A DNA stretch of 64,000 bases from Lysobacterales bacterium (GCA_031364125.1 JANLVT010000045.1:5082-69081); one strand, 5' to 3'. Shown: positions 16,618 to 38,736, numbered from the stretch's first letter. Numbers and translations are program-made. The notes: generated by a model from the letters alone, not told the origin.

Positions 16618-16643
16618 AGGTGTCGATCTTAGCAGTCGGGCGA

Positions 16644-17154: not shown

Positions 17155-17167
17155 GACGGAGCCCGAT

Positions 17168-17578: not shown

Positions 17579-17588
17579 GACGGATGCC

Positions 17589-18506: not shown

Positions 18507-18513
18507 AGGAGCG

Positions 18514-20677: not shown

Positions 20678-22834
20678 ATGTCGAAGATTGCGAATGCTTT
20701 CGCGATTCGGGCCGCGCTGACCCTTGCGTTGCTGATGGGCGCGGTCGCGCTGCTGTCGCCGCTCTCGTCGATCCGCGCCGCCGAACTGCAGGATGCGCTG
20801 CGCAGCGAACAACAGCGACCGCGCGCGCCGACGCTGCCGCGCAGCGCATTCCTGCAGCGCGCGTCGATCGTTTCGGTGGTGCTGTCGCCGGACGGACGGC
20901 AGGTCGCCTGGTTGAACGAGGCCGGCCGCAATCGCGAAGTCTGGCTGCAGACGACCGGCGGCGGTGAGGCGCGACGGCTGATGGCGCACACGCCCGCGCA
21001 TGAGTTGGCGTGGACGCGCGACAGCCGCTGGCTGCTGCTGGAAACGGCGCAGCATCTGTTCGCGCTGGCCGTCGACGGCCAGTCCGGTTCTGGCATCGTG
21101 ACCACGCTCGGCGGGCGCAGCGGGCGCGCGATGATGCGCGTCGACGACGCCATGCCCGCAGCGGCGATCGTGATCGAACAGGAAGGCCTCACGCCGCAGG
21201 GACAGCCCGCGCGATGGCGGCTGCTGCGCGTGGACATGCGCGGCAAACGCACGCGATTGCACGAAGACAGCCGGCGCATCACGGGTTATGCGCTGGATCC
21301 GCAGGGACGACTCGCATTCGTGCAGCGGGTGGAAGGACTGGAATTGACGATCCAGCGCGTCGAAGCAGGCGGCCGTCTGCGCGAAGTCGCACGCTGCGCG
21401 CGGATGCGGCGCTGCATGCCGCTGGTGACCAGCGCAGACGGACGCGATCTGATCCTGCGCGGCAATTTCGGCGAAGCGACCGGCCCGGAGCTGCATCGAC
21501 TGATGCGACTCGATGCCGACGGCCGCCTCCACGTACTGCATGCCGATCCGCGCGGCGAAGCGGATCTGGATACGCTGATTTTCGATCCGCTGACCCGGCA
21601 GCCGCTGATCGCGGCCTATCGCAGTACCGTCGCCGTCAGTCACGGCCTCGATGCCGACACGCAGCGGCATCTGCGACGTCTTGGAGCGTTGCTGCCGCAG
21701 CGGGACCAGCAGTTGGACCAGCGCATCGAGATCGGCCGCGGACAGGAGGCGCGCTGGCTGGTCGAAACCAGCGCCGGACACCAGCAGGGCAGCCGTTGGC
21801 ATCTGTACGATCCCGCCGTCGGCAGCGTGTCGGTGCTGTTCGACGACCGCCCGCGCGATGCGCGCAGTCAGCGTCCGGCCAAGCGCATCGACGACGCCAC
21901 GCTGGCGCGCAAGATTCCGGTCGACTGGCGCGCATCCGACGGCATGCGCCTGCATGGTTTCGTGTATCTGCCGCCCGGGCGCGCGGCGGCCACCCTGCCG
22001 CTGGTGGTGCTGCCACATGGCGGACCGTGGAATCACTGGCGGCCCGAGTACAACGGCATCAGCCAATTCCTGGTCAATCGCGGTTATGCGGTGTTCGAGC
22101 CGAACTTCCGCAGCTCGACCGGCCATGGCCGCGCCTATACATTCGCCGCGAACGGCGACTTCGGCAACGGCCGCGTGCAGCAGGACATCGTCGACGGCAC
22201 GCGCTACCTGCTCGCATCGGGCATCGGCGATGCGCAGCGCGTCGGCATCGCCGGTGCGTCGTTCGGCGGCTATTCGACGCTGCTCGGCGTCACCTTCCAG
22301 CCGGACCTGTTCAAGGTCGGCGTCGCCTTCGTGCCGCCGCCGGATTTCGCCTGGACGCTGCGCTGGCTGCTGCGCAACCCGGAATCGCTGGAATTCGGCA
22401 ACGTGGTGCCGATGACCGACTGGCTGCGGATGCTGTCGCTGGATGTCGACGACAGGGCGCACATGGCGACACTGCACGCGCAGTCGCCGCTCGCGAACAC
22501 CGCACGCATGCATCGGCCGCTGCTGCTGGTGGCCGGCGGCGAAGACCGCCGCGTCGGCATCGCCGGGGTGATCGAATACGCGGCAAGGCTCAAGCTCGCG
22601 AACAAGGACGTGAGCCTGCTGGTGGATACCGATGCCGGGCACGCCAATCGCGAGCCGATCGCCCGCGAAGCCAATCTCTATCTGCTAGAAGCGATGCTGC
22701 ATCGCCATCTCGACGGCACTGCGCCGGTCCCGCCGGATGCGGCATTGCGCGATTATCTCCGCGAAAATCTTCGCTTGTGCCATCGCGACCTGCAGGCGGT
22801 TTGCGCGAAGCGCGGGAGCGCGGGCACACGTTGA
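20678..22834 (+). CDS. S9 family serine peptidase (prolyl oligopeptidase/dipeptidyl aminopeptidase-like), secreted
   Basis: 718 aa. Signal peptide (..ALLMGAVALLSPLSSIRAAE), N-terminal beta-propeller-like region, nucleophile elbow GASFGGYS, C-terminal D...GH (TDAGHAN). Confidence 0.85.
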   Translation: MSKIANAFAIRAALTLALLMGAVALLSPLSSIRAAELQDALRSEQQRPRAPTLPRSAFLQRASIVSVVLSPDGRQVAWLNEAGRNREVWLQTTGGGEARRLMAHTPAHELAWTRDSRWLLLETAQHLFALAVDGQSGSGIVTTLGGRSGRAMMRVDDAMPAAAIVIEQEGLTPQGQPARWRLLRVDMRGKRTRLHEDSRRITGYALDPQGRLAFVQRVEGLELTIQRVEAGGRLREVARCARMRRCMPLVTSADGRDLILRGNFGEATGPELHRLMRLDADGRLHVLHADPRGEADLDTLIFDPLTRQPLIAAYRSTVAVSHGLDADTQRHLRRLGALLPQRDQQLDQRIEIGRGQEARWLVETSAGHQQGSRWHLYDPAVGSVSVLFDDRPRDARSQRPAKRIDDATLARKIPVDWRASDGMRLHGFVYLPPGRAAATLPLVVLPHGGPWNHWRPEYNGISQFLVNRGYAVFEPNFRSSTGHGRAYTFAANGDFGNGRVQQDIVDGTRYLLASGIGDAQRVGIAGASFGGYSTLLGVTFQPDLFKVGVAFVPPPDFAWTLRWLLRNPESLEFGNVVPMTDWLRMLSLDVDDRAHMATLHAQSPLANTARMHRPLLLVAGGEDRRVGIAGVIEYAARLKLANKDVSLLVDTDAGHANREPIAREANLYLLEAMLHRHLDGTAPVPPDAALRDYLRENLRLCHRDLQAVCAKRGSAGTR

Positions 22835-22946
22835 AATCGACTTGTTTTTCCGGCGGGTTCGGCAAAGACAAGTGGCTGGCGCGGCACTGGCGCAAGCGAC
22901 CCGGAAGATGAGCGGCGGATGGATTTCGCGCCCGGTCGAATGCGTC

Positions 22947-23945
22947 TCACGAAGGGGGATCGCGGAGCGGTCGCGCGGTGCGCATCCCCAGTGCGAGCCT
23001 GAGTTCATCCAACGGAAAATCCGACTGCTTCGCAGGGTCGCCGAAATGCGCGGCGATCGATTCGCTCCAGAGGATCTCCGTCTGGGGCGCGAATCCCAGA
23101 CGGTTGTTCATCATGTGGATCTGGGAATAGAACATGCCGGCGATCGCTCTCGACCGTTCGACCTCGTCGGTGGGCGAACGCGCCTGTATGGGAGATATCA
23201 GCAGGCCATCCTCCGCCATGGCCATGAACGTTCGGTAGGCCTGGCCGACCGCGACGCCCCAGTGCCCGACGAGCGAATCCGCAGGTCGGCCGGACGCCAG
23301 GAAAGCGCGGTGCGCGTCGAAGCGCGAGGCCATGCCGTCCGCGACCAGTGCCTTGCCGACGAAGGCGTCGTCGCCGCCGCCGGTCGGCCCATTGCTCCAG
23401 CCGATGGCATACGTGGAGAAAAAAGCGCTGGGCGACCCGTTGCAGCAGTCCGTCGCGGCCGCGGTCATCAGCATCAGGTCGATCGCCAGGCGGGCGCGCT
23501 TGCGATGATCCGCGACTGTCAGATCGATGGCGCGAACCGCGATCGCGGTGGACAGCCGGAACAGGCGTTCGTTCTCCTTCAGGGCATGCGGCCCCCCGTA
23601 CCGGCGCGTTTCGGGGACGTATTCGACGTCCGCGATCGCGCCGGGCGTGAACAGAGTGCCCTGGCTGTCGGGGTAGCCGATCGACCGGACCCACTCCGAG
23701 ACAGGTACGTTCTCGGCAAGAGCGGCGCATTCGGCCGCCGCTTGCGCGCGGAATGCGTCGTACACAGGATCGATCCGCTGGCCGACGCGGATGCGGAGAT
23801 GCGCGCCGCCCTCGGCGTAACGAATGAAAAACCAGTCGTCGTGAGAGTCGGTCAGGTCGCGCAGGATGCGGGCAGTCGCGATGGCGAGCAGATCCGCATG
23901 CTCCGGTTGGGCGTAGAAAAGATGGAACGAGCGCCATGAATTCAT
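22947..23945 (-). CDS. thiopeptide-type bacteriocin biosynthesis protein (SpaB_C / LanB C-terminal-like fold); glutamate-elimination enzyme or pyridine synthase
   Basis: 332 aa. The N-terminus WRSFHLFYAQPEHADLL....WFFIRYAEGGAHLRIRVG...YVPETRRYGGPHAL..ERLF..S is the hallmark pattern of the SpaB_C/thiopep_ocin domain. It is the last gene of the RiPP operon. Confidence 0.8.
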   Translation of the reverse strand: MNSWRSFHLFYAQPEHADLLAIATARILRDLTDSHDDWFFIRYAEGGAHLRIRVGQRIDPVYDAFRAQAAAECAALAENVPVSEWVRSIGYPDSQGTLFTPGAIADVEYVPETRRYGGPHALKENERLFRLSTAIAVRAIDLTVADHRKRARLAIDLMLMTAAATDCCNGSPSAFFSTYAIGWSNGPTGGGDDAFVGKALVADGMASRFDAHRAFLASGRPADSLVGHWGVAVGQAYRTFMAMAEDGLLISPIQARSPTDEVERSRAIAGMFYSQIHMMNNRLGFAPQTEILWSESIAAHFGDPAKQSDFPLDELRLALGMRTARPLRDPPS

Positions 23946-23952
23946 ATCTTTC

Positions 23953-25464
23953 TCATGCGATCGGAAACGCTGGATTGGGGTGCGGGTCGAAGCCGATCAG
24001 TATCTGCACGAGCGCACGCATCTCCAGCGGCATCAGCAGGTTTTTCAGATCGTCCGGATAGGCCATGAACGGGCGGGCCGTCATGCCGTTGCGTGCCGCA
24101 GCGAGACACATACATTGCGACAGAACGCCGGCGCGTAGATATGCATCGATGAGCGCATGCGCCGCCGCGCCATCGCCCGCCAGATGTCCGTCGGCGCCGA
24201 TCGTGATCAGGATGCCGGTGTTGTAGCGGCACATCTCGCGCGCCACGCGCAAGGTGTCTTCGCCGCACGGCATCGGCGTCATGCGCGAGCGCACGTGATC
24301 GACGTCGAAAATCCGGACAGGCGCTTCCTGCGTTGCTTTCCACACGAGCGTAACGCACAGCGGCAGGGTCCCGACTGCATGCGATCCGCTGCCGCGAACC
24401 AGAATCCGTATGTCGGCCAGCAGCGCGTCCAGAACGGCCGCGTCCATGGCCCTCGTCCAACGGGCGATGCCGTTGCCGATGCCGGATGAACGCCTGTCGG
24501 AAAGATCAAGGACGGAAAACAATTCCGGTGGCGTGTCGTTTGCATCACCGATGGCGCCGTACTCGGTAGCGACGCCCGATGCGGTGCGGATCGGCGCCGT
24601 GGCCGCCAACCGCACGAAATCGCGCATCGACGGATGCGCATCGGCATCGGCATGGTGCGGCCGGGGGCGGATCGTCTCCAGCGGGCGGGCGCTCAGATCC
24701 GATAGCGCAGAGCCTGCGCGGTCGCCCGACAATCGGCAGCTGACCATCGGCGATTCGCTCCAATGCCCGATGCCGACCAGCGTGCGCAAAGCGTCGTCGT
24801 CGTGGCGCGCGCAAGGATGCAGGCGCCAGCCCAGGGCGCGAGCGACGAAGTGGATCTGCGCCTGCAGCATTCCGGCTTCCAGCGCGACCAGCCAGAGAGC
24901 GAGGGCGCCATAGATGCCGACGCATTTGCCGAGATTGCCGACGATGACCAGCGACAGGGCGTCCTCGTCTTCAGACGCCGCATCCTCGGGGACTTCGCGA
25001 CTCTCGAGCAGACACAGATCGCGGGGGCTGCAATAGAGCGCGCGCGGGCCATTGCGCGTCCGTGCGATCAGATAAAGATCCACGGGAAACAGGGCCCCGG
25101 GCGTCGGGACTGCCCGATGCTGTCCGCAACCGTTGAGCGGCTCCCAGCGGATCGGCCATGCGGAATGCTGGAGCAGGACCGATAACTTCTCCGATGCGGT
25201 CAGCCCTGCCGTTGCGGCGCCGTCTTCGGTCGCAGTGGTGTCCGGCGGTTCCGGCAGGACATAGGCCGCGGCCTGATGCTGCTCGAACGTCACGCCCTTT
25301 TCGAACCGCGGATGCAGCCGCGTGCGGTCCATCTCGGGCGCCAGCGGAAATATCGATGATGTGCCGCCCTGCCGCAGCCCCTCCCACCGCGCGCCGCGCA
25401 GTTCGCGCCGACGGTCCGAAGTGGCGACGATGTAATCCTGAACCGGCGTGTTGCTGGCCATCAT
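23953..25464 (-). CDS. SagB-type (tandem nitroreductase-fold) FMN-dependent azoline dehydrogenase
   Basis: 503 aa and about twice nitroreductase length. First half ..AVPTPGALFPVDLYLIAR....LYCSPRDL.., with a second pseudo-repeat. It sits directly downstream of the YcaO gene (4-nt gap), as in TOMM/thiopeptide clusters. Confidence 0.7.
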   Translation of the reverse strand: MMASNTPVQDYIVATSDRRRELRGARWEGLRQGGTSSIFPLAPEMDRTRLHPRFEKGVTFEQHQAAAYVLPEPPDTTATEDGAATAGLTASEKLSVLLQHSAWPIRWEPLNGCGQHRAVPTPGALFPVDLYLIARTRNGPRALYCSPRDLCLLESREVPEDAASEDEDALSLVIVGNLGKCVGIYGALALWLVALEAGMLQAQIHFVARALGWRLHPCARHDDDALRTLVGIGHWSESPMVSCRLSGDRAGSALSDLSARPLETIRPRPHHADADAHPSMRDFVRLAATAPIRTASGVATEYGAIGDANDTPPELFSVLDLSDRRSSGIGNGIARWTRAMDAAVLDALLADIRILVRGSGSHAVGTLPLCVTLVWKATQEAPVRIFDVDHVRSRMTPMPCGEDTLRVAREMCRYNTGILITIGADGHLAGDGAAAHALIDAYLRAGVLSQCMCLAAARNGMTARPFMAYPDDLKNLLMPLEMRALVQILIGFDPHPNPAFPIA

Positions 25465-25468
25465 GCCC

Positions 25469-27343
25469 TCATGGGAAGACGTGGGGATCGTCGCGAAAGC
25501 GGGACACGCCGTCGCGTCCCGTCATCCGCATCAGGCGATCGGTCGAAATGCGCCGGTAGCGGTGACCGAAGGTCATCGGAAGCAGGCCCGGCGCAAGCAC
25601 CTTCGCGCAGTGCAACCCATCGGATCGGAAAGGTTCGAAGCCCTGATCGATGGTGATCACATCGGCTGCAACGCTCAGCGTCGCTTCAACCAGATCCTTC
25701 ATCAATGCGAACGTGGGGATTTCCTGCGCGTCGGCGCAGGTCGGGATCGCCGACAAGGCAAGCTTCGGACCCGAGGCGATTGGGAAGCTGCGCTCGCGCA
25801 ACGCCCTCAATGGCCAGCACTGCAACGAGTGGTCGGCCATGGATCCCACCGCGGCGGGATTGTCGAGCAGGATCTCCGCCTTGCGCATTTTATCTTCCCG
25901 ATCGCGATCATCGTGGCGATGCACGAAGGTCACCGCTTCTGCGAACGCGGCGCGCATGGCCTTGTCGCGATCGAGATGCGCGCCGGCTGCATAAACCGCA
26001 GCGGGGCCGAAGCGCAGGTCGGGATCCGTGATCCTCACCGCGAAGGCCGGGGGCGGCAGTCCGCAACGGATATCGTAGACGTCGACTTCGAGCCCCTCGG
26101 CGCAGAGGCGGGCCAGCATCGCCTGCACGAACGGATCTGCGCAGTCTCGCGCGTCGACCGCGTGGAGCTCACGCCCGGAATACCAGGATGCAAGAAAAGC
26201 GTCGCGCTCGATGATCTCAAGCAGGCCGTGGAGCGTGGCTTCCGCCATGGACGAACCGATCGCGCAGCCATTGGAGATTTCGTAGACGAATCGGCCCCCG
26301 GTCACATGCGTCGTGGATCGGCCGAGGCCGTAATAGGCCAGTTGCAACGGAACCAGTACTTCTGCGCCGCGCCGGAACGAGTATCCCCAGACCCAGTCGT
26401 ACACCGTGTCAGGACTGTATTCGGCGATCGCGAAACCGGGTTCGCCGCGCTGCGCCGGCGCATGCAGGATGAACGACTGCGGATCGATCGCCCGATCCCG
26501 CAGTGCGTTGTAGCTGCCCTTCACCGTGGTCCGCTGGCCGCGGGGCCGCATCCCCGCGAAACGCTCGATGGCTTCCAGCAACGCGATGGTGGCGTCATCG
26601 CCGGCCTTGCCCGACCGGCCGAAGCCTTCTTCGACCGTGGCGAGGTCTTTGAACGGATAGAGCGTCGCCGCATGCATGCCCAGCATCGGTGTCGATGTCC
26701 GGGGCACGATTTGCCGGACCACGCCGGTGCGACCATCCTTCGAATGGGGAAGGATCGCGGACGCGATGTCCCGCAACGATGAGCCGCGCAGACCGGAAGT
26801 CATTCGATCATTGCGGAACATGTCCGCAGCGGTCGTGCGCGTGTTGTCCGGCAGCGGCTCGCACCGCGGGCAGTCCGGATGGCGGATGAAAACGTGTTCG
26901 GACACCGATCTGCGGTCGATGCTGACGAGGCGCGCGCTCCCGGTGGAGCCATCCGTTTCGGGCGGTGGGGCGACGGCCGTCGCTGCGATCATCGCGGCCA
27001 GCCATGCGTCGCCCGCTGGGGAAATGGCGGGAAACTCGTCCGGCTGACAGGCCGTATCCCGGGTAAATCCGACCGTCCATCCATGCAGCCGCCACAGCTG
27101 GAAGCAATGAAAGCAGGGGTCGGAGGCGGCCGCTGCGCTGATCCAGCAGTGTCCTTGCGTCCACAGCACGAGGATCAACGCATGGCGATCAGCGACAGCC
27201 TCGTCGACCGTGCGCGACTGTTCCGCCAAGCGGTAAAGCGGATGAGCGACGATGCCGATGTGGGCGGGTACGCCCGCCGCGATCAGCGCGTCTTCGACCT
27301 GCATCGCCAAGGGGGGCGCGAAACCCAGGATGCGATGCTTCAT
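25469..27343 (-). CDS. YcaO-type cyclodehydratase (azoline-forming, thiopeptide/TOMM type)
   Basis: About 624 aa. YcaO core motifs GFGRSGKAGDDATIALLEAIERFAG, NGCAIGSSMAEATLHGLLEIIERDAF and AGAHLDRDKAMRAAFAEA. The C-terminus is Pro-containing (..DDPHVFP). ATG 27343 overlaps the upstream stop (ATGA). The track ORF (to 27679) is over-extended. Confidence 0.85.
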   Translation of the reverse strand: MKHRILGFAPPLAMQVEDALIAAGVPAHIGIVAHPLYRLAEQSRTVDEAVADRHALILVLWTQGHCWISAAAASDPCFHCFQLWRLHGWTVGFTRDTACQPDEFPAISPAGDAWLAAMIAATAVAPPPETDGSTGSARLVSIDRRSVSEHVFIRHPDCPRCEPLPDNTRTTAADMFRNDRMTSGLRGSSLRDIASAILPHSKDGRTGVVRQIVPRTSTPMLGMHAATLYPFKDLATVEEGFGRSGKAGDDATIALLEAIERFAGMRPRGQRTTVKGSYNALRDRAIDPQSFILHAPAQRGEPGFAIAEYSPDTVYDWVWGYSFRRGAEVLVPLQLAYYGLGRSTTHVTGGRFVYEISNGCAIGSSMAEATLHGLLEIIERDAFLASWYSGRELHAVDARDCADPFVQAMLARLCAEGLEVDVYDIRCGLPPPAFAVRITDPDLRFGPAAVYAAGAHLDRDKAMRAAFAEAVTFVHRHDDRDREDKMRKAEILLDNPAAVGSMADHSLQCWPLRALRERSFPIASGPKLALSAIPTCADAQEIPTFALMKDLVEATLSVAADVITIDQGFEPFRSDGLHCAKVLAPGLLPMTFGHRYRRISTDRLMRMTGRDGVSRFRDDPHVFP

Positions 27344-29166
27344 GCCTCCATCGTCCGCGCATGCCCGACATGCATGCCCACGGGAAGACAGGGATCGGTC
27401 GCCGCCACGTACTGCAGCGCGATGGGCGCTTCGATCGCAGACGCCGATGGTGGATCGTCGCCATCGCCGGCCTCCCGCGGCAAGGCGACACGCCGCAGTT
27501 CCGAGAGCGGCCAGATCATTTGGCGATCCGTCAGCTGTCCGAGTTGAAAGGCGCTCAGGGTTTCGCCCAAGGCCTCGAAAATGACGGACTGGAGATCGGG
27601 GGCGACGGCCACCGCGGTCCAATCCCCGATGTTCGCCCAAGCGATACAGGCGCCAGACTCCGCCGACCCCGATGTCCAAAGGATGGGCAGGCTGCCCGAA
27701 TACAGGCGGATCAGTCGGGCGAGCACCTGCACATCGGGACTGTCGGCGGTCGTGATCGCGCGCGCCTGCGGAGGACGATCGAGGAGAAAATCCGGCAGCG
27801 TCGCGCGTGCGTACGACATGGCCCGGGCGCGCGACGTTTCCTGCGATGCGGATGCGATCAAAAGCGAGACGCCCGGCGCAGCGACGTGTCCCGTGTTGCC
27901 CGCCACGAGTGTTGCGAAGGCCTGCGCCATCAAGCGCTGTTCGGCACCGGCAGGATCCAGGCCCCAGTCGTAAAGCGTTTGCTGGCGCGCCTCGCCTTCA
28001 GGAGAGGCATATGACAGCGCGACCGCCCTGTGCGCGAGAGGATATTCGGGGCCCGGCACCGTCGCATCGCTGAACAGGCCGGCGGCGGGGTCGAAGAAGC
28101 GGGTCAACAATGGATCCGTGGGGGCGACCACAGGTTCATCCGGGACATCGTTGACCAGCGATCGGCCACTGGCCAGGAAAACCCCGCTGTCGTGGCTGCT
28201 GACCGAACCGTCATTGCGCACCACGCGGAATTGCGTCTCGCGCCTCGCGCTTTCCCCGGGATCGTCGGACCATGCCGCGATGCGCTCCTGCATGGCCTCG
28301 AAGGCAAGCAGGGAAGCGAGTACGCGCACTGCCGCTTTGGTGAACGGTTGGGCTTGGCCGCCCACCCGCGTGGTCAAGGCTTGCCATGGCGCCAAGCCGT
28401 TCCGGCAATCCGGACCGACAATGCCGATGTCGCCGAAAACAGCGCCGATCATCGTGACCTCGTGCCTGCTCGCCAGCGCCTCGATCCTGCTCAGGACGTC
28501 TTCGTCCGGCGGTTCGGCGCCGAGATACAGCAGCAGCGATCTCGGCTCGCGCTGTTGGCGTATCGCGGCCGCAAAGCTCAGCACCTCGCATGCCGATGGC
28601 AATCCAAGCGGCGGGTATGTTCCGTTGCTGTGCGGCGGGCCTTGGAGATTCCCCGGATCGATCGTCTGCGCATCGCGGAGCGTTGAATCGACCGTCTCCG
28701 AATCGATGATCGCGACATGGCCGGCCGCCGCCGATACGATCGCGCGGGCCAAGGCAGGAACGAGTTCCCGCGAACCCATCAGGGTGATTCGCGCCTGCGA
28801 CCATTCCTCGAAGCACTCGCGCCACCGTGAGGTCGCGTCTCTGAAGAAATGCAGGGTCGAGGCATGGAGATGCTCTTCCGGAATGGCTTCGGGCGGACCG
28901 CTGGTCAACATCCGTTGGCGGACGAGATGATCCAGAAGCTGGTCCAGAAGCGGCATCACTTTTTCCGGGAGCGCTGAACGGATCTCGTCGAGCGGGCGCG
29001 ACCCATCGAGGCTGTCGAGGATGCGCGACACGATCGGGAAGAGTTTCTCGCCGCGGACGAAGAAGCTGCGCTCGCCGAGCTCGACGTAAGTGCCGGCTTC
29101 GACCTGCGCGTGGAGCACGCCCGACTTGAGCATGGGGGCATCGATGAGTGACGAGGTTAGCGACAT
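27340..29166 (-). CDS. ocin-ThiF-like thiazole-bacteriocin maturation protein with N-terminal RRE (PqqD-like) leader-binding domain
   Basis: 608 aa. The N-terminus GERSFFVRGEKLFPIVSRILDSLDGSRPLDEIRSALPEKVMPLLDQLLDHLVRQRML fits the RiPP recognition element pattern (..L.G...l..ll..LdG.r.l.ei). Size and position (immediately upstream of YcaO, ATGA-coupled) match the TclI-like partner protein. Confidence 0.65.
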   Translation of the reverse strand: MSLTSSLIDAPMLKSGVLHAQVEAGTYVELGERSFFVRGEKLFPIVSRILDSLDGSRPLDEIRSALPEKVMPLLDQLLDHLVRQRMLTSGPPEAIPEEHLHASTLHFFRDATSRWRECFEEWSQARITLMGSRELVPALARAIVSAAAGHVAIIDSETVDSTLRDAQTIDPGNLQGPPHSNGTYPPLGLPSACEVLSFAAAIRQQREPRSLLLYLGAEPPDEDVLSRIEALASRHEVTMIGAVFGDIGIVGPDCRNGLAPWQALTTRVGGQAQPFTKAAVRVLASLLAFEAMQERIAAWSDDPGESARRETQFRVVRNDGSVSSHDSGVFLASGRSLVNDVPDEPVVAPTDPLLTRFFDPAAGLFSDATVPGPEYPLAHRAVALSYASPEGEARQQTLYDWGLDPAGAEQRLMAQAFATLVAGNTGHVAAPGVSLLIASASQETSRARAMSYARATLPDFLLDRPPQARAITTADSPDVQVLARLIRLYSGSLPILWTSGSAESGACIAWANIGDWTAVAVAPDLQSVIFEALGETLSAFQLGQLTDRQMIWPLSELRRVALPREAGDGDDPPSASAIEAPIALQYVAATDPCLPVGMHVGHARTMEA

Positions 29167-30221
29167 AACGCTGCGCCGTGTGAGTACGATCTTGAGAGGA
29201 TGCCCGGAAAATGCGCTTCGAGCATGTCGGTGACGAGATGACAGACGAGGAACCGTTGACTCGCCCCGAAACCGATCGCCGGAAACATGTCGTACAGAGA
29301 GTTCATCAACATGCGATAGGCGAACTGTGTCGGATGATCCATGGCTGCGATCGTCTGGGTGTCGATGCTGTTCATCGTGCCCATCCCCGCCTTGAAGGGG
29401 GCCATGACCTGTGCGTTGACGTTCCTGACGAAATCAGGCTCGGCCGTGTCCAGGAACCGGAGCAGCTGTTCGTATGCGATCTGCAGACGGCAGATCCATG
29501 CGTAACTGTGTGCGGATGCCGCCATTGCGCCGTCGAGCATGCCCTCTTGCCTCACCCGCGCGAGGAGCGCCGGCTGCAATACCGCCAGCCGCGCGGGAAA
29601 TGTCTTGGTGATGCTCGATAAAGCCTTGCTGCTGGCATGCGCCTGTCCCTGCAGCGACAGCGGCCAGAAATTCAATCCATCCCGCCATGCGAGCCGCTCG
29701 AGACAGACGATCCGGAAGGCCAGTTCGACCAGCGCCTCCGATGGCGATCGCAGCCGCAGCTCGACCAGCTCGAAGACGTCTTCGAGGGTCGCCGCCTTGA
29801 AAGCATCCCTCAACGGCGCGAGCGCCATTCGACCTAACGGGTGAGGAACGGCGAAACGGCCGCGTTCGACGCGCCTGTCCGGCCTGATCGAACCCGGCTC
29901 GTAGGGCAAGTCCTCGAGTTCGGCCAGCTTTTTCGCACGCGCGCGGAAAGCAGCCTCGTCCAAGTGCGGTCGCGGCGGCTCATCGTCCAGCCAGCGCTGC
30001 ACGACATCGGCGACGATCGTCCATCGATCCGGGCCATCGTCCGAAGGAATATCCAGCCCGATCAGGAGATGCGGGCCGTCGAGCCAGTGCGGCCGAAGCG
30101 TCGCGCCGATGCCGCCCTCGCGCCATCCGATCACGTGCAGCGCTGGCCGGATCCCATCGAGGATGAGCTGACCGTGGTCCGTCGCGTGATGATTGACGCG
30201 CAGGCCGTACACCATGGTCAT
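29157..30221 (-). CDS. divergent SpaB_C-like protein (candidate second thiopeptide elimination / [4+2] cyclase enzyme)
   Basis: About 354 aa. Start MTMVYGLRV overlaps the LanB stop (ATGA at 30218-30221). ..LILDGIRPALHVIGWREGG..ATLRPHWLDGPHLLIGLD.. parallels the ..FFIRY.dGGPHLRLR.. core of the SpaB_C fold, but it is much more divergent than the 22947-23945 protein. The track ORF (to 30695) is over-extended. Confidence 0.5.
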   Translation of the reverse strand: MTMVYGLRVNHHATDHGQLILDGIRPALHVIGWREGGIGATLRPHWLDGPHLLIGLDIPSDDGPDRWTIVADVVQRWLDDEPPRPHLDEAAFRARAKKLAELEDLPYEPGSIRPDRRVERGRFAVPHPLGRMALAPLRDAFKAATLEDVFELVELRLRSPSEALVELAFRIVCLERLAWRDGLNFWPLSLQGQAHASSKALSSITKTFPARLAVLQPALLARVRQEGMLDGAMAASAHSYAWICRLQIAYEQLLRFLDTAEPDFVRNVNAQVMAPFKAGMGTMNSIDTQTIAAMDHPTQFAYRMLMNSLYDMFPAIGFGASQRFLVCHLVTDMLEAHFPGILSRSYSHGAALCR

Positions 30222-32878
30222 GCGAGTTCCTTGAGCGTCAGCTCGATCCCGAACTCGCCCACCACCGCATGCCCGCCCTGCTCGAAGCAGGTCTGGGTGG
30301 GGTCGGGCAGCGCTTCGGCGAACACCACGTCCAGATCGCCGACGGCGAGGTTCTTCTGGAAGATGCGAACGGCCATGGGGCACGCCGTGTCGAGCGGCAT
30401 GGGTTTCGCATCCTTGCCGGGCAGGGATCTCCAATCCGGCGAATGCATGCCCTCGCCGCGATGCAGGGCGGGAATCGCCGTCCGTTTGCTGAACATCCAG
30501 CGCGGCAGATCGTTGCTGTCGGCCCACGCTGCGAACTGCTCGAAAAAAACGAATTCGTCCAGGGCGGGATCGGGCAGGTCGGCTTTTCTGATTGCCAGCG
30601 AACGGCGGACGAGAACGATGTCGCCCAGGCGCACGCGGGGAATCCTGATGGCGCCGCGGGCGTCCGGCGCGAGAAAATGCGCGAATTGATCGCATAGATC
30701 ATCGACGCGGTCGGAACTGAAGCACAGCGTGCGCACGACCTGATGGCTGCGGGGCATCAACAGCGGCGTCAGGATTCCGGGATAGAAGACGTTCACCACC
30801 TGCCCGTGCTCATCTTCGAAGACCAGATCATCGCGATCGGCGCGATGCCTCAGGCGCAGGGCGTCGAGCGATTTGGCCGTGGCTCTCGATGACACGAAAG
30901 GCGGAATGTCGACGACCTCATCCGACAGAATCGGATGCAGGTTGGCGTTGAAACCGAAGATGCCGCCCAGTTCCACGAATGCGCCGTCTTCCGAAATGTC
31001 CCGGAGATAATTGCTGACCTTGTCCTTGGCGATCTTGTCGTCCGGGATGAATCTCGAAAACATGCAGGATGCGCCAGGGTAGATGTGGTTGATCGCCAAC
31101 CATGGGCCCTCCGGCGTGGCGACAGGCTGCATGAAGAGCATCTTCGATACATCCGGCCGCGGACCCTCTGTTTTCACATGCCGCGAGTACCTGTCCAAGT
31201 GCCCGCCCTCCAGTACGATCTCGCGACTCGTCTTCGCCAGTCCGGCCAGGCGCATGAACATTTTTCTGCGCAGGCGCGCAAGCGCGCGATCCGTGTCTTC
31301 GGATCCGCGCCGCAGACGTTCGGAGTCGCCCGCATGCTGTCCGCTGTCTCCGAAGTGAGCGTCGAATGTATCGGCGCAGGTCTCGATGAAGTCGCGTACG
31401 TCCCGGCAGACGCCACCGCTGCCGTAGCGCTCCCGGAATCTTCGGCAGATCAGTCTTCGGAATCGGCTCAGCGGCGCATTGCCGGTCAGGATCGGAATGA
31501 TCCGCAGCAACGCGACCAGTTCCGGTTCGTATCGGTCCAGGAACTTGCGCGGCAGGCCGAAAGCAGGCGCGGGCAGCGAACAATCTTCGAAAAGGATCGG
31601 CCGGAAGCGTTCGACTGCGATGGAGATGCCGGCGATCGACAGGATCGTCTGGAAATGCCCTTCGACTGTCGCGGTGAACTGGTGATCGAACCGATCGGGC
31701 GACGCGATCGCGGCCATGAACTGCTGCAGCGCCGAAGACATCGCATCGCGCAGAGGTTGCTTCAGGCATGCACAGGCCGTGCTTGCCCAATCGACCGAGT
31801 CCGATCCGGACGCCAGGTCCGGCCGGATAAGCCCGTGCTGCCAAGCGGTGGAAAGCAATTCGTCGGCGCGCGCCGCATCGCCGCCGACCGCCGGTAGAAG
31901 CGCTTCCCGCAGGCGGTACAACGCCAGCGCGCGTCGGGGGCCGGGCGTGTCGAAGATTTTCGACAGCAGTTTTACCAGTGCCGCCCGGCTGCTGTTTTTG
32001 GCGACCCGCGTGCCGCGTGTGCGGGATTCGGGCGGCTCATCGTTCTTGATCCTGCTCCAGGTGTAGTGTCCGTCCTCGGCACGCACACTGGCGTTGAGGA
32101 TCACGAGCGTGCGGTCATCGATGCGTTCGATACTGTTCAACAGTTCGAGAAAAACGTAATCCAGCGCGGCGAAGCGCGGCTGCAGTCTGCGTTCAACCAT
32201 GGTCGTCAAGGCGAAGGCGTTGCCGTCGCCAAACGCTTCCGGCGCCGTATCGTTCCAGCAGCCAAGGGCGACCAGGCCGAATGAGGAGAGCGGGCTGGTC
32301 TTCTGGCCCGACCTCAGAATGTATCGCCCCAAGCTGGTGCAAAGCTGGGCGCGCTGCTTGTTGGGAAACTGTCGCCCCGACAGAAGCTGGAGAACCCTCG
32401 CATGCACTGGCGGATTCGTCAGCGCCAGCGCATGGATCAGGGCGTGCTCCGAAAACAGACGCAGGGCAATATCGTAGGCCTGCTCGACTTCGCCCGCGTA
32501 AGTCGACGCACAGTTCGCCTCCAGACCGGAGATCGCCCGCAGCGAATCGATCAGCGTGCCGACGGCCTCATCGCATTCTCGCGGCAAATGCGGACGGACC
32601 CGCTCCGCCAACGCCTGGGCTGGCAGTCGTTCGTTGAACAGATCGCGCTTGAGTTGGATCAGCACACGCGCGATCGCGGGGTCACGGCCGTAGAGCGTCG
32701 AAACCTCGGCGGCCAAGGCATCGCACAGGATCGCCTTGCTTGTCGAAAATGCCTCGCGCAGCGAGCGCAAGGCCCGGATTTGACCAATGGTACGGCCGGA
32801 CGCGAACGATGTTTCTGCGATCGGAACGCCACCCAGGCGAGCGACCACGAAAGGGTGGGGAACCAGGATGTGGTTCAA
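30218..32878 (-). CDS. lanthipeptide/thiopeptide dehydratase, LanB N-terminal (glutamylation) type
   Basis: 886 aa. The N-terminus ..PFVVARLGGVPI... and ..ILRSGQKTSPLSSFGLVALGCW.. fit Lant_dehydr_N patterns (f.lvRtP.lp; ..TPf.lFa.v..G). No fused C-terminal elimination domain, i.e. the split thiopeptide-type architecture. The apparent start is TTG at 32878, with no in-frame ATG upstream. Confidence 0.85.
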   Translation of the reverse strand: MNHILVPHPFVVARLGGVPIAETSFASGRTIGQIRALRSLREAFSTSKAILCDALAAEVSTLYGRDPAIARVLIQLKRDLFNERLPAQALAERVRPHLPRECDEAVGTLIDSLRAISGLEANCASTYAGEVEQAYDIALRLFSEHALIHALALTNPPVHARVLQLLSGRQFPNKQRAQLCTSLGRYILRSGQKTSPLSSFGLVALGCWNDTAPEAFGDGNAFALTTMVERRLQPRFAALDYVFLELLNSIERIDDRTLVILNASVRAEDGHYTWSRIKNDEPPESRTRGTRVAKNSSRAALVKLLSKIFDTPGPRRALALYRLREALLPAVGGDAARADELLSTAWQHGLIRPDLASGSDSVDWASTACACLKQPLRDAMSSALQQFMAAIASPDRFDHQFTATVEGHFQTILSIAGISIAVERFRPILFEDCSLPAPAFGLPRKFLDRYEPELVALLRIIPILTGNAPLSRFRRLICRRFRERYGSGGVCRDVRDFIETCADTFDAHFGDSGQHAGDSERLRRGSEDTDRALARLRRKMFMRLAGLAKTSREIVLEGGHLDRYSRHVKTEGPRPDVSKMLFMQPVATPEGPWLAINHIYPGASCMFSRFIPDDKIAKDKVSNYLRDISEDGAFVELGGIFGFNANLHPILSDEVVDIPPFVSSRATAKSLDALRLRHRADRDDLVFEDEHGQVVNVFYPGILTPLLMPRSHQVVRTLCFSSDRVDDLCDQFAHFLAPDARGAIRIPRVRLGDIVLVRRSLAIRKADLPDPALDEFVFFEQFAAWADSNDLPRWMFSKRTAIPALHRGEGMHSPDWRSLPGKDAKPMPLDTACPMAVRIFQKNLAVGDLDVVFAEALPDPTQTCFEQGGHAVVGEFGIELTLKELA

Positions 32879-32900
32879 TGTTCATCTCATGGTGCGCGCG

Positions 32901-32928
32901 AAAAACCACCCGTGGTAGGCACGAGTGG
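32901..32928 (-). terminator. intrinsic terminator/attenuator hairpin between precursor gene and lanB-like gene
   Basis: The minus-strand RNA reads CCACUCGUG-ccuac-CACGGGUGG (9-bp stem including one G-U pair) followed by UUUUU. A second, weaker hairpin AUCCGC-N9-GCGGAU plus U6 lies at 32954-32980. Confidence 0.45.
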
Positions 32929-32991
32929 TCTTCGACTGTCGTGGCAAGCAGGCTAAAAAATCCGCCAAGACAGCGCGGATGCCGTCTATGC

Positions 32992-33171
32992 TCAACCGTC
33001 GATCAGGGGCTCTTGAACGCAGCAGCTGCAGCTGCACGAGGCGCAGACGGCGCTGATTCTCGAGGCGCCCATTTCCGGGAACGCGACGGAATCGGAGGAG
33101 TCGAGTACTTCGATATCGAACATGTCGATTTCGGTCAGATCGATGTCGCTGAAATCCAAAGCGTTGTTCAT
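32992..33171 (-). CDS. thiopeptide-type RiPP precursor peptide
   Basis: 59 aa: MNNALDFSDIDLTEIDMFDIEVLDSSDSVAFPEMGA / SRISAVCASCSCSCCVQEPLIDG. The leader is acidic and ends in MGA. The core is Ser/Cys-rich (5 Ser, 5 Cys in 15 residues). A strong RBS AAAAGGAGAGG sits upstream of ATG 33171. The track ORF (to 33249) is over-extended. Confidence 0.8.
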   Translation of the reverse strand: MNNALDFSDIDLTEIDMFDIEVLDSSDSVAFPEMGASRISAVCASCSCSCCVQEPLIDG

Positions 33172-33206
33172 TAACCTCTCCTTTTCCTTGAACGGGTGTT
33201 TATCGG

Positions 33207-33220
33207 TTCCGCGCGCGGAA
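33207..33220. promoter_or_regulatory. 14-bp perfect palindrome upstream of the precursor gene (possible operator or 5'-UTR hairpin)
   Basis: TTCCGCGCGCGGAA, 36-49 nt upstream of the precursor ATG, within the ~240-bp intergenic region that must hold the operon promoter. Confidence 0.2.
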
Positions 33221-33410
33221 TGTAGCACAGTCTTTCTGCGCGAATGCACCCTGCCCGGATGGGCTGGCCGCCATCATGCCGGCCCATCCGAATCCCTGCC
33301 GACGCATGGCGCGCAGCTTCGCATCGACCCGGCTATTCCGATCGTCGCGGTACCGTCGCCACTCGCTCGCCTTGCGCCCGCCGCCCACGGCCGAGCGTCA
33401 TCATCCGCGA

Positions 33411-36099: not shown

Positions 36100-36131
36100 G
36101 CGCCGCCGACGCGCATCCGCGTCGGCGGCGC
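36100..36131. terminator. GC-rich 14-bp perfect hairpin downstream of the S9 peptidase gene
   Basis: GCGCCGCCGACGCG-CATC-CGCGTCGGCGGCGC, 18 nt beyond the stop at 36149. No clean U-tract, so it may be a REP-like element rather than a terminator. Confidence 0.35.
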
Positions 36132-36148
36132 AGGCGCATTCGGCGGAC

Positions 36149-38617: not shown

Positions 38618-38736
38618 GGCGGTCGTCGCTGAACGGAGTCGGCGAAGCTTACTGCCTGCCCGCACGGGTCGCAGCGGGCCGATGGTCACGGGAATTCGCC
38701 GCATGTCGTGGGCGCGCACCGCCGCTGCGGCGGGCC

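What the first reader, a model, noticed from the sequence alone, without database searches (positions are those of the whole stretch)
22947..33171. Complete thiopeptide (pyritide)-type RiPP gene cluster in a Xanthomonadales-like chromosome
Seven co-directional minus-strand genes are packed as one operon, with ATGA overlaps at 30218-30221 and 27340-27343, a 10-nt overlap at 29157-29166, and gaps of 4 and 7 nt. The genes are: a 59-aa Ser/Cys-rich precursor; a split LanB-type dehydratase (glutamylation domain only, 886 aa); a divergent SpaB_C-like protein (354 aa); an ocin-ThiF-like protein with an RRE-like N-terminus (608 aa); a YcaO cyclodehydratase (624 aa); a tandem-nitroreductase SagB-type dehydrogenase (503 aa); and a canonical SpaB_C/thiopeptide-type protein (332 aa; WRSFHLFY...WFFIRYAEGGAHLRIRV). 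This is the minimal enzyme set established for thiocillin-type thiopeptides (TclI/J/K/L/M/N equivalents): azole formation, Ser/Thr dehydration, and a [4+2] pyridine synthase. As far as I know, characterised thiopeptides come from Actinobacteria and Firmicutes, so a product from a Gram-negative Xanthomonadales-like host would probably be undescribed. The cluster looks somewhat less GC-rich than its flanks by eye. It sits between an S9 peptidase gene and nadV-nadM, with no integrase or tRNA nearby.
Basis: partly seen in the sequence, partly recalled or inferred. Interest (0 to 1): 0.9.

Follow-up and report, generated by a model that had tools for sequence, protein, structure and literature searches.

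The report
Thiopeptide antibiotic gene cluster, Gram-negative host
This is a real, intact seven-gene cluster for making a thiopeptide (a sulfur-rich ring-shaped peptide of a well-known antibiotic class), and what is unusual is its host, a Xanthomonas-family Gram-negative bacterium, where no product of this class has yet been characterised.

Summary
Window 22947-33171 holds seven co-directional minus-strand genes, with the stated overlaps and gaps.

- **Precursor (59 aa):** passes the curated thiopeptide-precursor models.
- **886-aa protein:** a TbtB-like LanB glutamylation enzyme.
- **354-aa protein:** a distant but full-length homologue of the pyridine synthases TbtD/PbtD (profile E 1.5e-24; model TM 0.70/0.80).
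- **608-aa protein:** no family-model hit, but it has a PbtF-like RRE and an E1/ThiF-like fold.
- **624-aa protein:** a SagD-type YcaO ending in PHVFP.
- **503-aa protein:** a weak SagB-type dehydrogenase match.
- **332-aa protein:** the LanB elimination domain.

The same seven-gene cassette, in the same order and with unrelated flanks, occurs in a few Gamma- and Alphaproteobacteria MAGs. Its genes are under purifying selection. The core SRISAVCASCSCSCC is invariant across lineages whose enzymes have diverged to 55% identity.

The host is Xanthomonadaceae-like (TyrS 84-86% to Lysobacter, Pseudoxanthomonas and Thermomonas). Cluster GC3 is lower than in the flanks. The closest relatives (nadV 99%) carry a different 2.2-kb cargo at the same nadV|S9 junction.

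Verdict: an uncharacterised proteobacterial clade of a known RiPP class. It is a new member of that class, not a new kind. Ring size (29 or 35 atoms), the fate of the tail and the activity are unknown.

The parts
32992..33171 (-). Precursor peptide gene (59 aa): leader MNNALDFSDIDLTEIDMFDIEVLDSSDSVAFPEMGA, then core SRISAVCASCSCSCC plus a variable acidic tail VQEPLIDG.
   Evidence: PF19409 Thiopep_pre 31.5 bits (cut-off 23.5) and NF033400 30.9 bits (cut-off 30). Strong SD. The core is invariant in L005, L006, L012 and L013 while the tail varies. dN/dS is 0.09-0.19.
32905..32935 (-). Hairpin followed by a U-run in the 113-nt spacer between the precursor and the first enzyme gene. Candidate attenuator or mRNA-stabilising stem.
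   Evidence: The centroid structure is a 13-bp stem followed by UUUUU. The equivalent stem in L012/L013 carries a compensatory change, and L010 has a strong hairpin plus T-run at the same place. A window-wide terminator scan is not enriched over shuffles, so this is suggestive only.
30218..32878 (-). Split LanB dehydratase, glutamylation component (886 aa; TbtB/LazB/TclK equivalent). TTG start.
   Evidence: PF04738, E 3.4e-19. The ortholog profile hits 6ec7/6ec8 (deposited as 'Lantibiotic dehydratase domain protein'; I recall it as TbtB) at E 2.6e-27 and the goadsporin protein 9jhq at E 1.1e-24.
29157..30221 (-). [4+2] pyridine synthase candidate (354 aa; TbtD/PbtD/TclM/LazC equivalent).
   Evidence: NF045556, E 1e-25 over its full length but 90.8 bits against the equivalog cut-off of 325. 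The family profile hits TbtD 5wa3 at E 1.5e-24 and PbtD at E 5e-12. The AF2 model has pLDDT 88.8. Foldseek top hits are TbtD (TM 0.70/0.80) and PbtD (0.67/0.77), while LanB elimination domains reach only 0.41. Y310 is invariant in the family and aligns with the Tyr of the TbtD 'NCTYLHL' and PbtD 'NLTYLQM' motifs.
27340..29166 (-). Leader-binding partner of the YcaO (608 aa; TbtF/PbtF/TclI/LazD equivalent): N-terminal RRE plus an E1/ThiF-like domain.
   Evidence: No Pfam or NCBIfam hit, even at E 10 for NCBIfam. The ortholog profile hits the PbtF RRE 8t19 at E 8.6e-7 over residues 10-83. The model (pLDDT 68.6) matches LynD/TruD at E 3e-12, MccB, PaaA and ThiF/MoeB.
25469..27343 (-). YcaO cyclodehydratase (624 aa; TbtG/TclJ/LazE equivalent) with an N-terminal TOMM docking-type domain.
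   Evidence: PF02624 E 1.7e-66, TIGR03604 258.7 bits (cut-off 219.25), TIGR03882 38.2 bits (cut-off 36.9) at residues 72-209. The C-terminus is PH[V/I/P]FP* in all orthologs.
23953..25464 (-). Azoline dehydrogenase candidate (503 aa; TbtE/TclN equivalent), SagB/nitroreductase-type.
   Evidence: TIGR03605, E 5e-10 (39.1 bits, below the cut-off of 78.4). All 6 orthologs hit the same model. The profile weakly hits BmdC thiazoline oxidase (E 0.002) in the N-half, and McbC and a tandem nitroreductase (E 0.2) in the C-half.
22947..23945 (-). Split LanB dehydratase, glutamate-elimination component (332 aa; TbtC/TclL equivalent).
   Evidence: PF14028 E 2.9e-29, TIGR03891 76.5 bits (cut-off 48.45). The profile hits the elimination domains of MibB (E 1.2e-6) and NisB.
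22810..33414 (.). Variable segment of the chromosome: the cluster plus its two intergenic borders. Closest relatives have this replaced by an unrelated 2.2-kb cargo.
   Evidence: Homology to L014/L015 (91-94% DNA identity; nadV 99% aa) stops at 33415 and resumes at 22809. Their 2.2-kb segment encodes a CxxxCxxC protein and an N6_N4 DNA-methylase-like protein. No flanking repeats were found.

Best explanation
Window 22947-33171 is a functional, self-contained biosynthetic operon for a thiopeptide (pyritide-type RiPP). It belongs to a small clade of such cassettes found so far only in Proteobacteria.

**Inferred pathway, by homology to the thiomuracin/GE2270, thiocillin and lactazole systems:**
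1. The 59-aa precursor is bound through its acidic leader (DFSDIDLxEIDxFDxEVL...GA) by the RRE of the 608-aa protein.
2. That protein presents the precursor to the YcaO, which uses ATP to cyclise the six core Cys residues to thiazolines.
3. The 503-aa flavoprotein oxidises the thiazolines to thiazoles.
4. The 886-aa enzyme glutamylates core Ser residues using Glu-tRNA(Glu), and the 332-aa protein eliminates glutamate to give dehydroalanines.
5. The 354-aa TbtD-like enzyme joins Dha1 (the first residue after ...GA) to a distal Dha that follows a thiazole (Ser11 or Ser13) in a formal aza-[4+2] cycloaddition. Loss of water and of the leader then gives a pyridine-bridged macrocycle of 29 or 35 atoms.

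**Shown here:** gene organisation, family and fold assignments, conservation of the cassette and core, purifying selection, host taxonomy, and presence/absence at the locus.

**Inferred:** every chemical step, the ring size, whether the acidic tail after Cys15 is kept, and the biological activity.
For: **Precursor.** It passes two curated thiopeptide-precursor models.

**Enzymes.**
- Five of the six enzymes match the expected families.
- The sixth (F) has a PbtF-like RRE and a LynD/MccB/ThiF-like fold.
- The hallmark enzyme D is closest, in both sequence and predicted structure, to the solved pyridine synthases TbtD and PbtD. It is clearly separated from LanB elimination domains.
- B is closest to 6ec7/6ec8, which I recall as TbtB.
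- The YcaO passes TIGR03604 and ends in the PxxFP-type C-terminus in all orthologs.

**Conservation.**
- The seven genes keep the same order (A-B-D-F-G-E-C) in independent assemblies from two Gammaproteobacteria MAG lineages, a JGI 743-kb contig and Allosphingosinicella and other Alphaproteobacteria MAGs. The flanks are unrelated.
- dN/dS is 0.15-0.36 for the enzymes and 0.09-0.19 for the precursor.
- The 15-residue core is invariant while the enzymes diverge to 55% identity.
- All precursor variants keep Ser directly after GA and an SCSCS motif, which gives a Cys-Ser(-Cys) site for the pyridine.

**Operon features.** Translational coupling (ATGA overlaps), a strong SD on the precursor and a hairpin after the precursor gene all fit a RiPP operon.
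Against: - No chemistry was observed. The source appears to be a metagenome-assembled contig, so no strain is in hand.
- D scores far below the NCBIfam equivalog cut-off (90.8 vs 325 bits) and shares only about 25% identity with TbtD, so catalytic equivalence is unproven.
- E is below its family cut-off.
- F matches no curated family model, and its structure model is only medium confidence (pLDDT 68.6, pTM 0.41).
- The cassette has no conserved exporter, immunity gene or leader/tail peptidase. That is awkward for a ribosome- or EF-Tu-targeting product made inside a Gram-negative cell.
- Residue 2 is Arg rather than the usual Cys, so the pyridine would lack one of its usual thiazole substituents. 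Lactazole is a precedent.
Confidence: 0.8

Rival explanations
1. The cluster makes a linear azole- and dehydroalanine-containing peptide of the goadsporin or 'dehydrazole' type, not a macrocycle. On this reading the 354-aa protein is a non-catalytic or differently acting SpaB_C-fold paralogue, for example a second elimination or scaffolding protein.
For: - D is only a distant homologue of TbtD (90.8 bits vs the cut-off of 325; about 25% identity).
- B also matches the goadsporin dehydratase 9jhq at E 1.1e-24.
- Dehydrazole-type clusters combine LanB and YcaO enzymes without a cyclase (PMC10676384, abstract seen).
Against: - D's nearest solved relatives, over its full length, are pyridine synthases. 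The 12 best Foldseek hits are TbtD or PbtD, while elimination domains drop to TM 0.41 and E about 0.08.
- A profile-profile comparison of D with the cluster's own elimination protein C finds no relation. D is therefore not a recent duplicate of C.
- The precursor matches thiopeptide-precursor models.
- All variants conserve Ser1 directly after the GA leader end, plus a distal Cys-Ser site.
Confidence: 0.1
2. The cluster is a horizontally acquired, silent or decaying relic that makes no product in this host.
For: - GC3 is lower and codon usage is atypical relative to the flanks.
- Close relatives lack the cluster at the same site.
- The simple scan found no sigma-70 consensus promoter.
- No exporter or immunity gene is present.
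Against: - All seven ORFs are intact and tightly coupled.
- dN/dS is 0.15-0.33 against L013, with dS similar to the flanking genes. The cluster has therefore been co-inherited and kept under selection in this lineage.
- At least 28 near-identical copies were recovered from independent metagenome assemblies.
- The core peptide is invariant across deep divergence.
Confidence: 0.07
3. The association with a Xanthomonadaceae chromosome is a metagenome assembly or binning artefact, and the cluster really belongs to a Gram-positive organism.
For: The window matches a 71.5-kb contig that appears to come from a metagenome. All relatives are MAGs or metagenome contigs.
Against: - The cluster is contiguous with the same Xanthomonadaceae-type neighbours (nadM-nadV on one side, S9-permease-ABC-GntR on the other) in four independent assemblies: the window, L001, L012 (a 637-kb contig) and L013.
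- GC content (63-66%) is close to the host's.
- dS of the cluster genes equals that of the flanks.
- The more distant copies also sit in proteobacterial contexts.
Confidence: 0.02

Closest known systems
Thiomuracin / GE2270 clusters (tbtA-G, pbt) of Thermobispora and Planobispora (Actinobacteria)
   Same: - The same six enzyme roles are encoded as separate genes.
- The closest solved homologues of D (TbtD, PbtD), B (6ec7/6ec8, which I recall as TbtB) and the F RRE (PbtF) all come from these two systems.
- The leader has the same acidic D-L-x-x-[IL]-D-x-F-[DE]-[LIV] architecture and ends in GA|S. The comparison with TbtA is from my own knowledge.
- The 15-residue core can be overlaid on TbtA's SCNCFCYICCSCSSA with C10-S11-C12-S13 identical, which would give a 29-membered ring.
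   Different: - Only about 25% identity at D. F is unrecognised by curated models.
- The gene order here is A-B-D-F-G-E-C.
- Residue 2 is Arg, not Cys.
- There is an 8-residue acidic tail after the core.
- There are no tailoring, resistance (EF-Tu) or transport genes.
- The host is proteobacterial.
Lactazole cluster (lazA-F) of Streptomyces lactacystinaeus
   Same: - A minimal, roughly 10-kb cluster holding only scaffold enzymes.
- The gene order precursor, glutamylation enzyme, pyridine synthase, RRE protein, YcaO is shared.
- Residue 2 is unmodified and non-azole. One Allosphingosinicella variant even starts SW like LazA.
- No immunity gene. Lactazole has no known antibacterial activity (PMC7210931).
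   Different: - LazF fuses the elimination domain (N-terminal) to the dehydrogenase, whereas here they are two genes in the opposite order (E then C).
- The core here is Cys-rich (6 Cys in 15 residues), unlike the low Cys/Ser/Thr content of lactazole.
Thiocillin/micrococcin cluster (tclE-N) of Bacillus cereus
   Same: The minimal enzyme set TclI/J/K/L/M/N maps one-to-one onto F/G/B/C/D/E. Multiple tandem precursor copies occur in some relatives (3 in L006 and L010), as with tclE-H.
   Different: - The tcl cluster carries L11 immunity genes (tclQ/T) and tailoring genes.
- Its ring is 26-membered, from the core SCTTCVCTCSCCTT.
- Its host is a Firmicute. (All tcl details are from my own knowledge.)
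Goadsporin / dehydrazole-type linear azole-Dha peptides
   Same: A split LanB dehydratase is combined with YcaO and dehydrogenase. B hits the goadsporin dehydratase structure.
   Different: Those clusters lack a TbtD-like protein and a thiopeptide-type precursor. This cluster has both.

Membership tests
Thiopeptide (pyritide) RiPP biosynthetic gene cluster | Precursor with a thiopeptide-type leader and a Ser/Cys-rich core | tested here: met
   PF19409 31.5 bits (cut-off 23.5) and NF033400 30.9 bits (cut-off 30). The core is SRISAVCASCSCSCC.
Thiopeptide (pyritide) RiPP biosynthetic gene cluster | Dedicated [4+2] cycloaddition enzyme (TclM/TbtD/LazC type), in addition to the LanB elimination domain | tested here: met
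   Met at the level of homology and fold: profile E 1.5e-24 to TbtD, and model TM 0.70/0.80 to TbtD against 0.41 to LanB elimination domains. Catalysis itself was not testable.
Thiopeptide (pyritide) RiPP biosynthetic gene cluster | Split class-I lanthipeptide-type dehydratase (glutamylation plus elimination proteins) | tested here: met
   PF04738 68.9 bits (cut-off 28); 6ec7 (recalled as TbtB) E 2.6e-27; PF14028 103.4 bits (cut-off 24.4); TIGR03891 76.5 bits (cut-off 48.45).
Thiopeptide (pyritide) RiPP biosynthetic gene cluster | Azoline-forming YcaO cyclodehydratase | tested here: met
   TIGR03604 258.7 bits (cut-off 219.25); PF02624 E 1.7e-66; C-terminal PHxFP in all orthologs.
Thiopeptide (pyritide) RiPP biosynthetic gene cluster | RRE-containing ocin-ThiF-like (F-type) partner protein | tested here: inconclusive
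   No Pfam or NCBIfam model matches. The profile hits the PbtF RRE at E 8.6e-7. The medium-confidence model matches LynD/TruD, MccB and ThiF/MoeB folds. The evidence is consistent, but family-level membership is not demonstrated.
Thiopeptide (pyritide) RiPP biosynthetic gene cluster | FMN-dependent azoline dehydrogenase (SagB/McbC type) | tested here: inconclusive
   TIGR03605 E 5e-10 but 39.1 bits, below the cut-off of 78.4. All 6 orthologs hit it. There are weak profile hits to BmdC and McbC.
Thiopeptide (pyritide) RiPP biosynthetic gene cluster | Two Ser residues placed to give the six-membered N-heterocycle: Ser1 at the leader junction and a distal Ser preceded by an azole-forming residue | tested here: met
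   Ser37 (core Ser1) directly follows GA. Cys10-Ser11 and Cys12-Ser13 are both available. The pattern is conserved in all 12 distinct precursor variants.
Thiopeptide (pyritide) RiPP biosynthetic gene cluster | The product contains a pyridine/piperidine-centred macrocycle | not testable with these tools
   Needs MS/NMR of an expressed product.
NCBIfam NF045556 TbtD_PbtD_pyrid (equivalog) | Whole-protein score at or above the curated equivalog cut-off (325 bits) | tested here: not met
   90.8 bits. D is a distant homologue, not an equivalog. An exhaustive search shows only 4 cluster representatives above 400 bits, then a continuum down to canonical-type sequences.
Lactazole-like thiopeptide clusters | Fused elimination-dehydrogenase protein (LazF) | tested here: not met
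   The dehydrogenase (23953-25464) and elimination protein (22947-23945) are separate genes, in dehydrogenase-then-elimination order. LazF architecture is taken from PMC7210931.
Lactazole-like thiopeptide clusters | Non-azole residue at core position 2, and a minimal cluster without tailoring or immunity genes | tested here: met
   Arg2 is present. There are only seven genes, and the flanks are unrelated across loci.

The most novel reading that the evidence does not exclude
This cassette defines a thiopeptide lineage native to Gram-negative bacteria, whose product differs structurally from all characterised series. For example, it could be a 35- or 29-membered pyridine macrocycle with Arg at position 2 and a retained acidic C-terminal tail. 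The product might have a role other than classical anti-Gram-positive ribosome or EF-Tu inhibition, given that no immunity or export genes travel with the cassette. Its LanB-type enzyme would work with gammaproteobacterial tRNA(Glu), so the whole pathway could run natively in E. coli-like hosts.
Probability: 0.35. Interest if true: 0.7.

Novelty: new member of a known kind. Interest (0 to 1): 0.5.

Why it matters
- **Host range.** Characterised thiopeptides come from Gram-positive producers. The accessible literature says 'most' (bioRxiv 10.1101/2020.04.23.057471), and proteobacterial examples are only in silico predictions (PMC8120280). A bona fide, compact seven-gene pathway that is conserved and under selection in Xanthomonadaceae and Sphingomonadaceae-type bacteria extends the class to Gram-negative producers and offers an undescribed core sequence.
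- **Practical value.** LanB-type dehydratases are tRNA(Glu)-specific. LazB rejects E. coli tRNA(Glu)/GluRS (PMC7210931). A proteobacterial pathway is therefore a plausible route to thiopeptide production and engineering in E. coli without imported tRNA. This is an inference.
- **Self-protection.** The lack of co-travelling immunity or export genes raises the question of how a Gram-negative producer tolerates or uses such a molecule.
- **Limits.** This is not a new biochemical principle. Every enzyme belongs to a known family.

Tried and rejected
- **S9 peptidase as a cluster member** (leader or tail protease; several tails contain Pro). Rejected: it is adjacent only in the close syntenic relatives L012 and L013, it is absent from L005, L006, L008 and L010, and it is still present in the cluster-less L014 and L015.
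- **GntR-ABC-permease genes (16958-20373) as exporter or immunity.** Rejected for the same reason.
- **Mobile-element signatures.** There is no tRNA in the window, no integrase among the Pfam-scanned flanking genes and no direct or inverted repeats at the cluster borders.
- **F as a degenerate paralogue of the YcaO protein.** hhalign of A3 against A7 found nothing.
- **D as a duplicate of the elimination protein C.** hhalign of A1 against A6 found nothing.
- **Rfam scan of the window.** No hits.
- **Promoter scan.** No sigma-70 consensus was found. Terminator-like sites are not enriched over shuffles.
- **Literature.** Schwalen et al. 2018 (PMC6070396) and Cogan et al. 2017 (PMC5724283) are not held. 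The phylum breakdown of known thiopeptide BGCs and the published catalytic residues of TbtD/PbtD could therefore not be checked. One literature search was badly designed and uninformative.
- **Ring size.** No single positional rule applied to the SCSCS motif can be chosen from sequence alone:
  - The second Ser gives 29/26/20/23 atoms across the four core types.
  - The third Ser gives 35/32/26/29.
  - The last Cys-Ser-Cys gives 35/26/26/29.

Full report
**1. Observation.**

ORF listing and translation show seven co-directional minus-strand genes between 22947 and 33171. I checked the junctions base by base:

- ATGA overlaps at 30221-30218 and 27343-27340.
- A 10-nt overlap, ATGTCGCTAA, at 29166-29157.
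- Gaps of 4 nt (25465-25468) and 7 nt (23946-23952).
- The 886-aa gene can only start at TTG 32878, because a TGA lies two codons upstream.
- The precursor ATG (33171) is preceded by AAGGAGAGG.

**2. What the genes are.**

*Precursor.* The 59-aa peptide passes Pfam Thiopep_pre (31.5 bits, cut-off 23.5) and NCBIfam thiazolyl_B (30.9 bits, cut-off 30).

*886-aa protein (B).* It carries Lant_dehydr_N (E 3.4e-19). A profile of its orthologs hits 6ec7/6ec8 at E 2.6e-27, an entry I recall as TbtB, and a goadsporin dehydratase at E 1.1e-24.

*332-aa protein (C).* This is the elimination partner: Lant_dehydr_C at E 2.9e-29, TIGR03891 above its cut-off, and profile hits to the MibB and NisB elimination domains.

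*354-aa protein (D).* It has no Pfam hit but matches NCBIfam TbtD_PbtD_pyrid over its full length at E 1e-25. That is 90.8 bits, far below the equivalog cut-off of 325.

- A 12-sequence family profile hits TbtD (5wa3) at E 1.5e-24 and PbtD at about 1e-11.
- An AlphaFold model (pLDDT 88.8, pTM 0.88) has TbtD and PbtD as its 12 best Foldseek matches (TM 0.62-0.71 by query, 0.71-0.80 by target). Next comes 7cww (0.57).
- LanB elimination domains reach only TM 0.41 at E about 0.08.
- A Tyr that is invariant in the family (Y310) aligns with the Tyr of the TbtD/PbtD N-x-T-Y-L motif. PDB entries 8ejy/8ejz, described as 'Y293F' and 'F293A' variants, suggest this residue is functionally important in PbtD. 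The numbering correspondence is my inference.
- D and C are not detectably related at profile level.

*624-aa protein (G).* A SagD-type YcaO: PF02624 at E 1.7e-66 and TIGR03604 at 258.7 bits against a cut-off of 219. It has an N-terminal TIGR03882 docking-type domain. All orthologs end in PH[V/I/P]FP. From memory, this is the PxPxP-type terminus of azoline-forming YcaOs.

*503-aa protein (E).* It gives only a sub-threshold SagB match (E 5e-10). All six orthologs hit the same model. The profile touches BmdC oxidase in the N-half, and McbC and a tandem nitroreductase in the C-half.

*608-aa protein (F).* It matches no Pfam or NCBIfam model, even at E 10 for NCBIfam.

- Its ortholog profile hits the solved RRE domain of PbtF at E 8.6e-7 over residues 10-83.
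- Its medium-confidence model (pLDDT 68.6) matches LynD/TruD heterocyclases (E 3e-12), MccB, PaaA and ThiF/MoeB.
- 'Ocin-ThiF-like with an RRE' is therefore a reasonable label, but it is not a family-model result.

**3. Relatives and conservation.**

The D and F families are rare. The word-indexed search of 5.8 billion proteins returned 11-12 clusters each. An exhaustive HMMER search with the D profile over 1.84 billion representatives found 421 hits at E <= 1e-3. Only four representatives scored above 400 bits, and below them a continuum runs towards canonical sequences.

Named members are MAGs of Gammaproteobacteria, Allosphingosinicella and 'Alphaproteobacteria bacterium'.

In every locus recovered, the seven genes occur in the same order: precursor(s), B, D, F, G, E, C. 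The loci are L001-L013. The flanking genes are unrelated from locus to locus, and no transporter, peptidase or immunity gene is conserved.

Some loci have two or three tandem precursor genes.

- The leader is strongly conserved (DFSDIDLxEIDxFDxEVLxxSDSxAxPExGA).
- The core always begins with Ser directly after GA and contains an SCSCS motif.
- In the window, L005, L006, L012 and L013 the 15-residue core SRISAVCASCSCSCC is identical, although the enzymes have diverged to 55-64% identity. The residues after Cys15 vary: VQEPLIDG, VQEDIIDG, IQDDIIDG, VEEQR, VEEF.

Nei-Gojobori estimates give dN/dS of 0.15-0.33 against L013 and 0.23-0.36 against L005 for the enzymes, and 0.09-0.19 for the precursor. 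dS of the cluster genes (0.16-0.32) equals that of nadV, nadM and the S9 gene (0.22-0.32). The cluster is therefore functional and has been co-inherited with its flanks since the window/L013 split.

**4. Host and genomic context.**

TyrS from the window is 84-86% identical to proteins named Lysobacter sp., Pseudoxanthomonas sp., Thermomonas sp. and Xanthomonadaceae bacterium. This supports 'Xanthomonadales-like'.

The window corresponds to a 71.5-kb contig held by NCBI, and near-identical cluster proteins occur in at least 28 metagenome assemblies. The source is probably a MAG.

An assembly chimera is unlikely. The same nadM-nadV | cluster | S9-permease-ABC-GntR arrangement is found in four independent assemblies, including a 637-kb contig.

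Cluster genes have lower GC3 (0.776 vs 0.852, p = 2e-5) and shifted codon usage.

A scan for NadV relatives found two contigs, L014 and L015, with NadV 99% identical and flank DNA 91-94% identical. In these, homology to the window stops at 33415 and resumes at 22809. The intervening 2.2 kb encodes a CxxxCxxC protein and an N6_N4 DNA-methylase-like protein instead of the cluster.

A more distant relative, L006, shares the window's DUF3667-DUF4286-PriA...sigma70-NYN neighbourhood but carries its cluster between priA and the sigma-factor gene.

The cassette is thus a movable unit sitting in a variable chromosomal spot. I found no tRNA, integrase or border repeats.

**5. Mechanism.**

By homology with thiomuracin, thiocillin and lactazole biosynthesis (PMC7210931, PMC7327761 and my own knowledge), the steps would be:

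1. F (RRE) and G (YcaO) convert Cys to thiazolines.
2. E oxidises the thiazolines to thiazoles.
3. B and C dehydrate Ser through glutamylation and elimination.
4. D joins Dha1 to a distal Dha, with loss of water and of the leader, to give the pyridine.

A hairpin with a U-run between the precursor gene and B is conserved with a compensatory change in L012/L013, and L010 has a strong equivalent. It may set the precursor-to-enzyme ratio. This is suggestive only, because terminator-like sites are not enriched overall.

Ring size cannot be read from the sequence.

- Overlaying the core on TbtA (C10-S11-C12-S13 identical) suggests Ser1/Ser11 and 29 atoms.
- Using the last Cys-Ser-Cys gives Ser1/Ser13 and 35 atoms.
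- Across the four core types, the 'third Ser' or 'last CSC' rules give only known sizes (26-35), whereas the 'second Ser' rule gives 20 and 23 for the Allosphingosinicella variants.

Predicted masses are 2104.762 Da with the tail and 1253.323 Da without it.

**6. Comparison and novelty.**

The closest systems are tbt/pbt, which supply the nearest solved homologues of D, B and the F RRE, and laz. The laz cluster shares the minimal cassette, the gene order through the YcaO and a non-azole residue 2. However, LazF is a fusion, and here the two activities are separate genes in the opposite order.

The cluster meets the defining features of a thiopeptide BGC at sequence and fold level. It fails the NF045556 equivalog threshold, so D is a distant family member rather than a TbtD ortholog.

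On prior knowledge:

- The accessible literature states that most thiopeptides come from Gram-positive producers.
- It also notes Gram-negative BGC predictions, and proteobacterial thiopeptide-like precursors have been reported in silico (PMC8120280).
- JGI already annotates these very precursors as 'Thiopeptide-type bacteriocin precursor'.
- I found no characterised product from such a host, but the key survey (Schwalen 2018) was not available to me.

**7. Verdict.**

This is a genuine, intact and conserved thiopeptide cluster in a Xanthomonadaceae-like chromosome. It is a new, uncharacterised member of a known class, in an unusual host phylum.

It is interesting for natural-product discovery and possibly for E. 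coli-compatible thiopeptide engineering. It is not mechanistically new. Interest is 0.5.

Noticed in passing
window 43183-45590: A low-GC segment (0.50-0.58, against about 0.68 elsewhere). Three tandem repeats of about 290 nt (43202-44030) and an inverted copy (45405-45590; arms 88-100% complementary) bracket a DUF4238 gene (44132-45304, minus strand). It looks like a repeat-bounded inserted cassette.
   Followed up: partly
window 39755-43078 (+): An 1107-aa protein with hydrophobic N-terminal segments and more than nine ankyrin repeats (Ank_2 E 5e-83). This is unusual for a free-living gammaproteobacterium.
   Followed up: no
L014 11429-13625 and L015, same position (equivalent to window 22810-33414): The closest relatives (NadV 99% aa) carry a different cargo at the nadV|S9 junction: a 373-aa protein with a CSARCRFC (CxxxCxxC) motif and no Pfam hit, plus an N6_N4 DNA-methylase-like protein. 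The junction is therefore a variable spot with alternative cargo.
   Followed up: partly
window 36106-36148 vs L012 1087-2907, L013 1215-3041, L014 about 6760-8727: Relatives have an EptA-like phosphoethanolamine-transferase/sulfatase gene between the second S9 peptidase and nadM. The window has only about 40 bp there.
   Followed up: no
L006 1-21062 vs window 5288-16683: A more distant cluster-bearing relative shares the DUF3667-DUF4286-x-PriA and sigma70-NYN/OST-HTH neighbourhood with the window, but holds its thiopeptide cluster between priA and the sigma-factor gene. That is a different insertion site in a syntenic background.
   Followed up: partly
window 20678-22834, 36149-38719, 60708-62996: Three S9-family (prolyl-oligopeptidase/DPP-IV type) peptidase genes lie in one 64-kb window. 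None is conserved with the cluster in other lineages.
   Followed up: partly
proteins P0222, P0225, P0228, P0232, P0239: Proteins of about 1260-1300 aa in the representative library carry the pyridine-synthase-like domain at their C-terminus (residues about 900-1260). They may be fusions with a LanB N-terminal domain. Their origin is unknown.
   Followed up: no
L008 4719-5888 and L010 4569-5430: In two unrelated loci the cassette lies next to ribosomal-protein genes (S6-S18-L9; L21-L27). This is probably coincidence, since none of them is the L11 associated with thiopeptide resistance.
   Followed up: no
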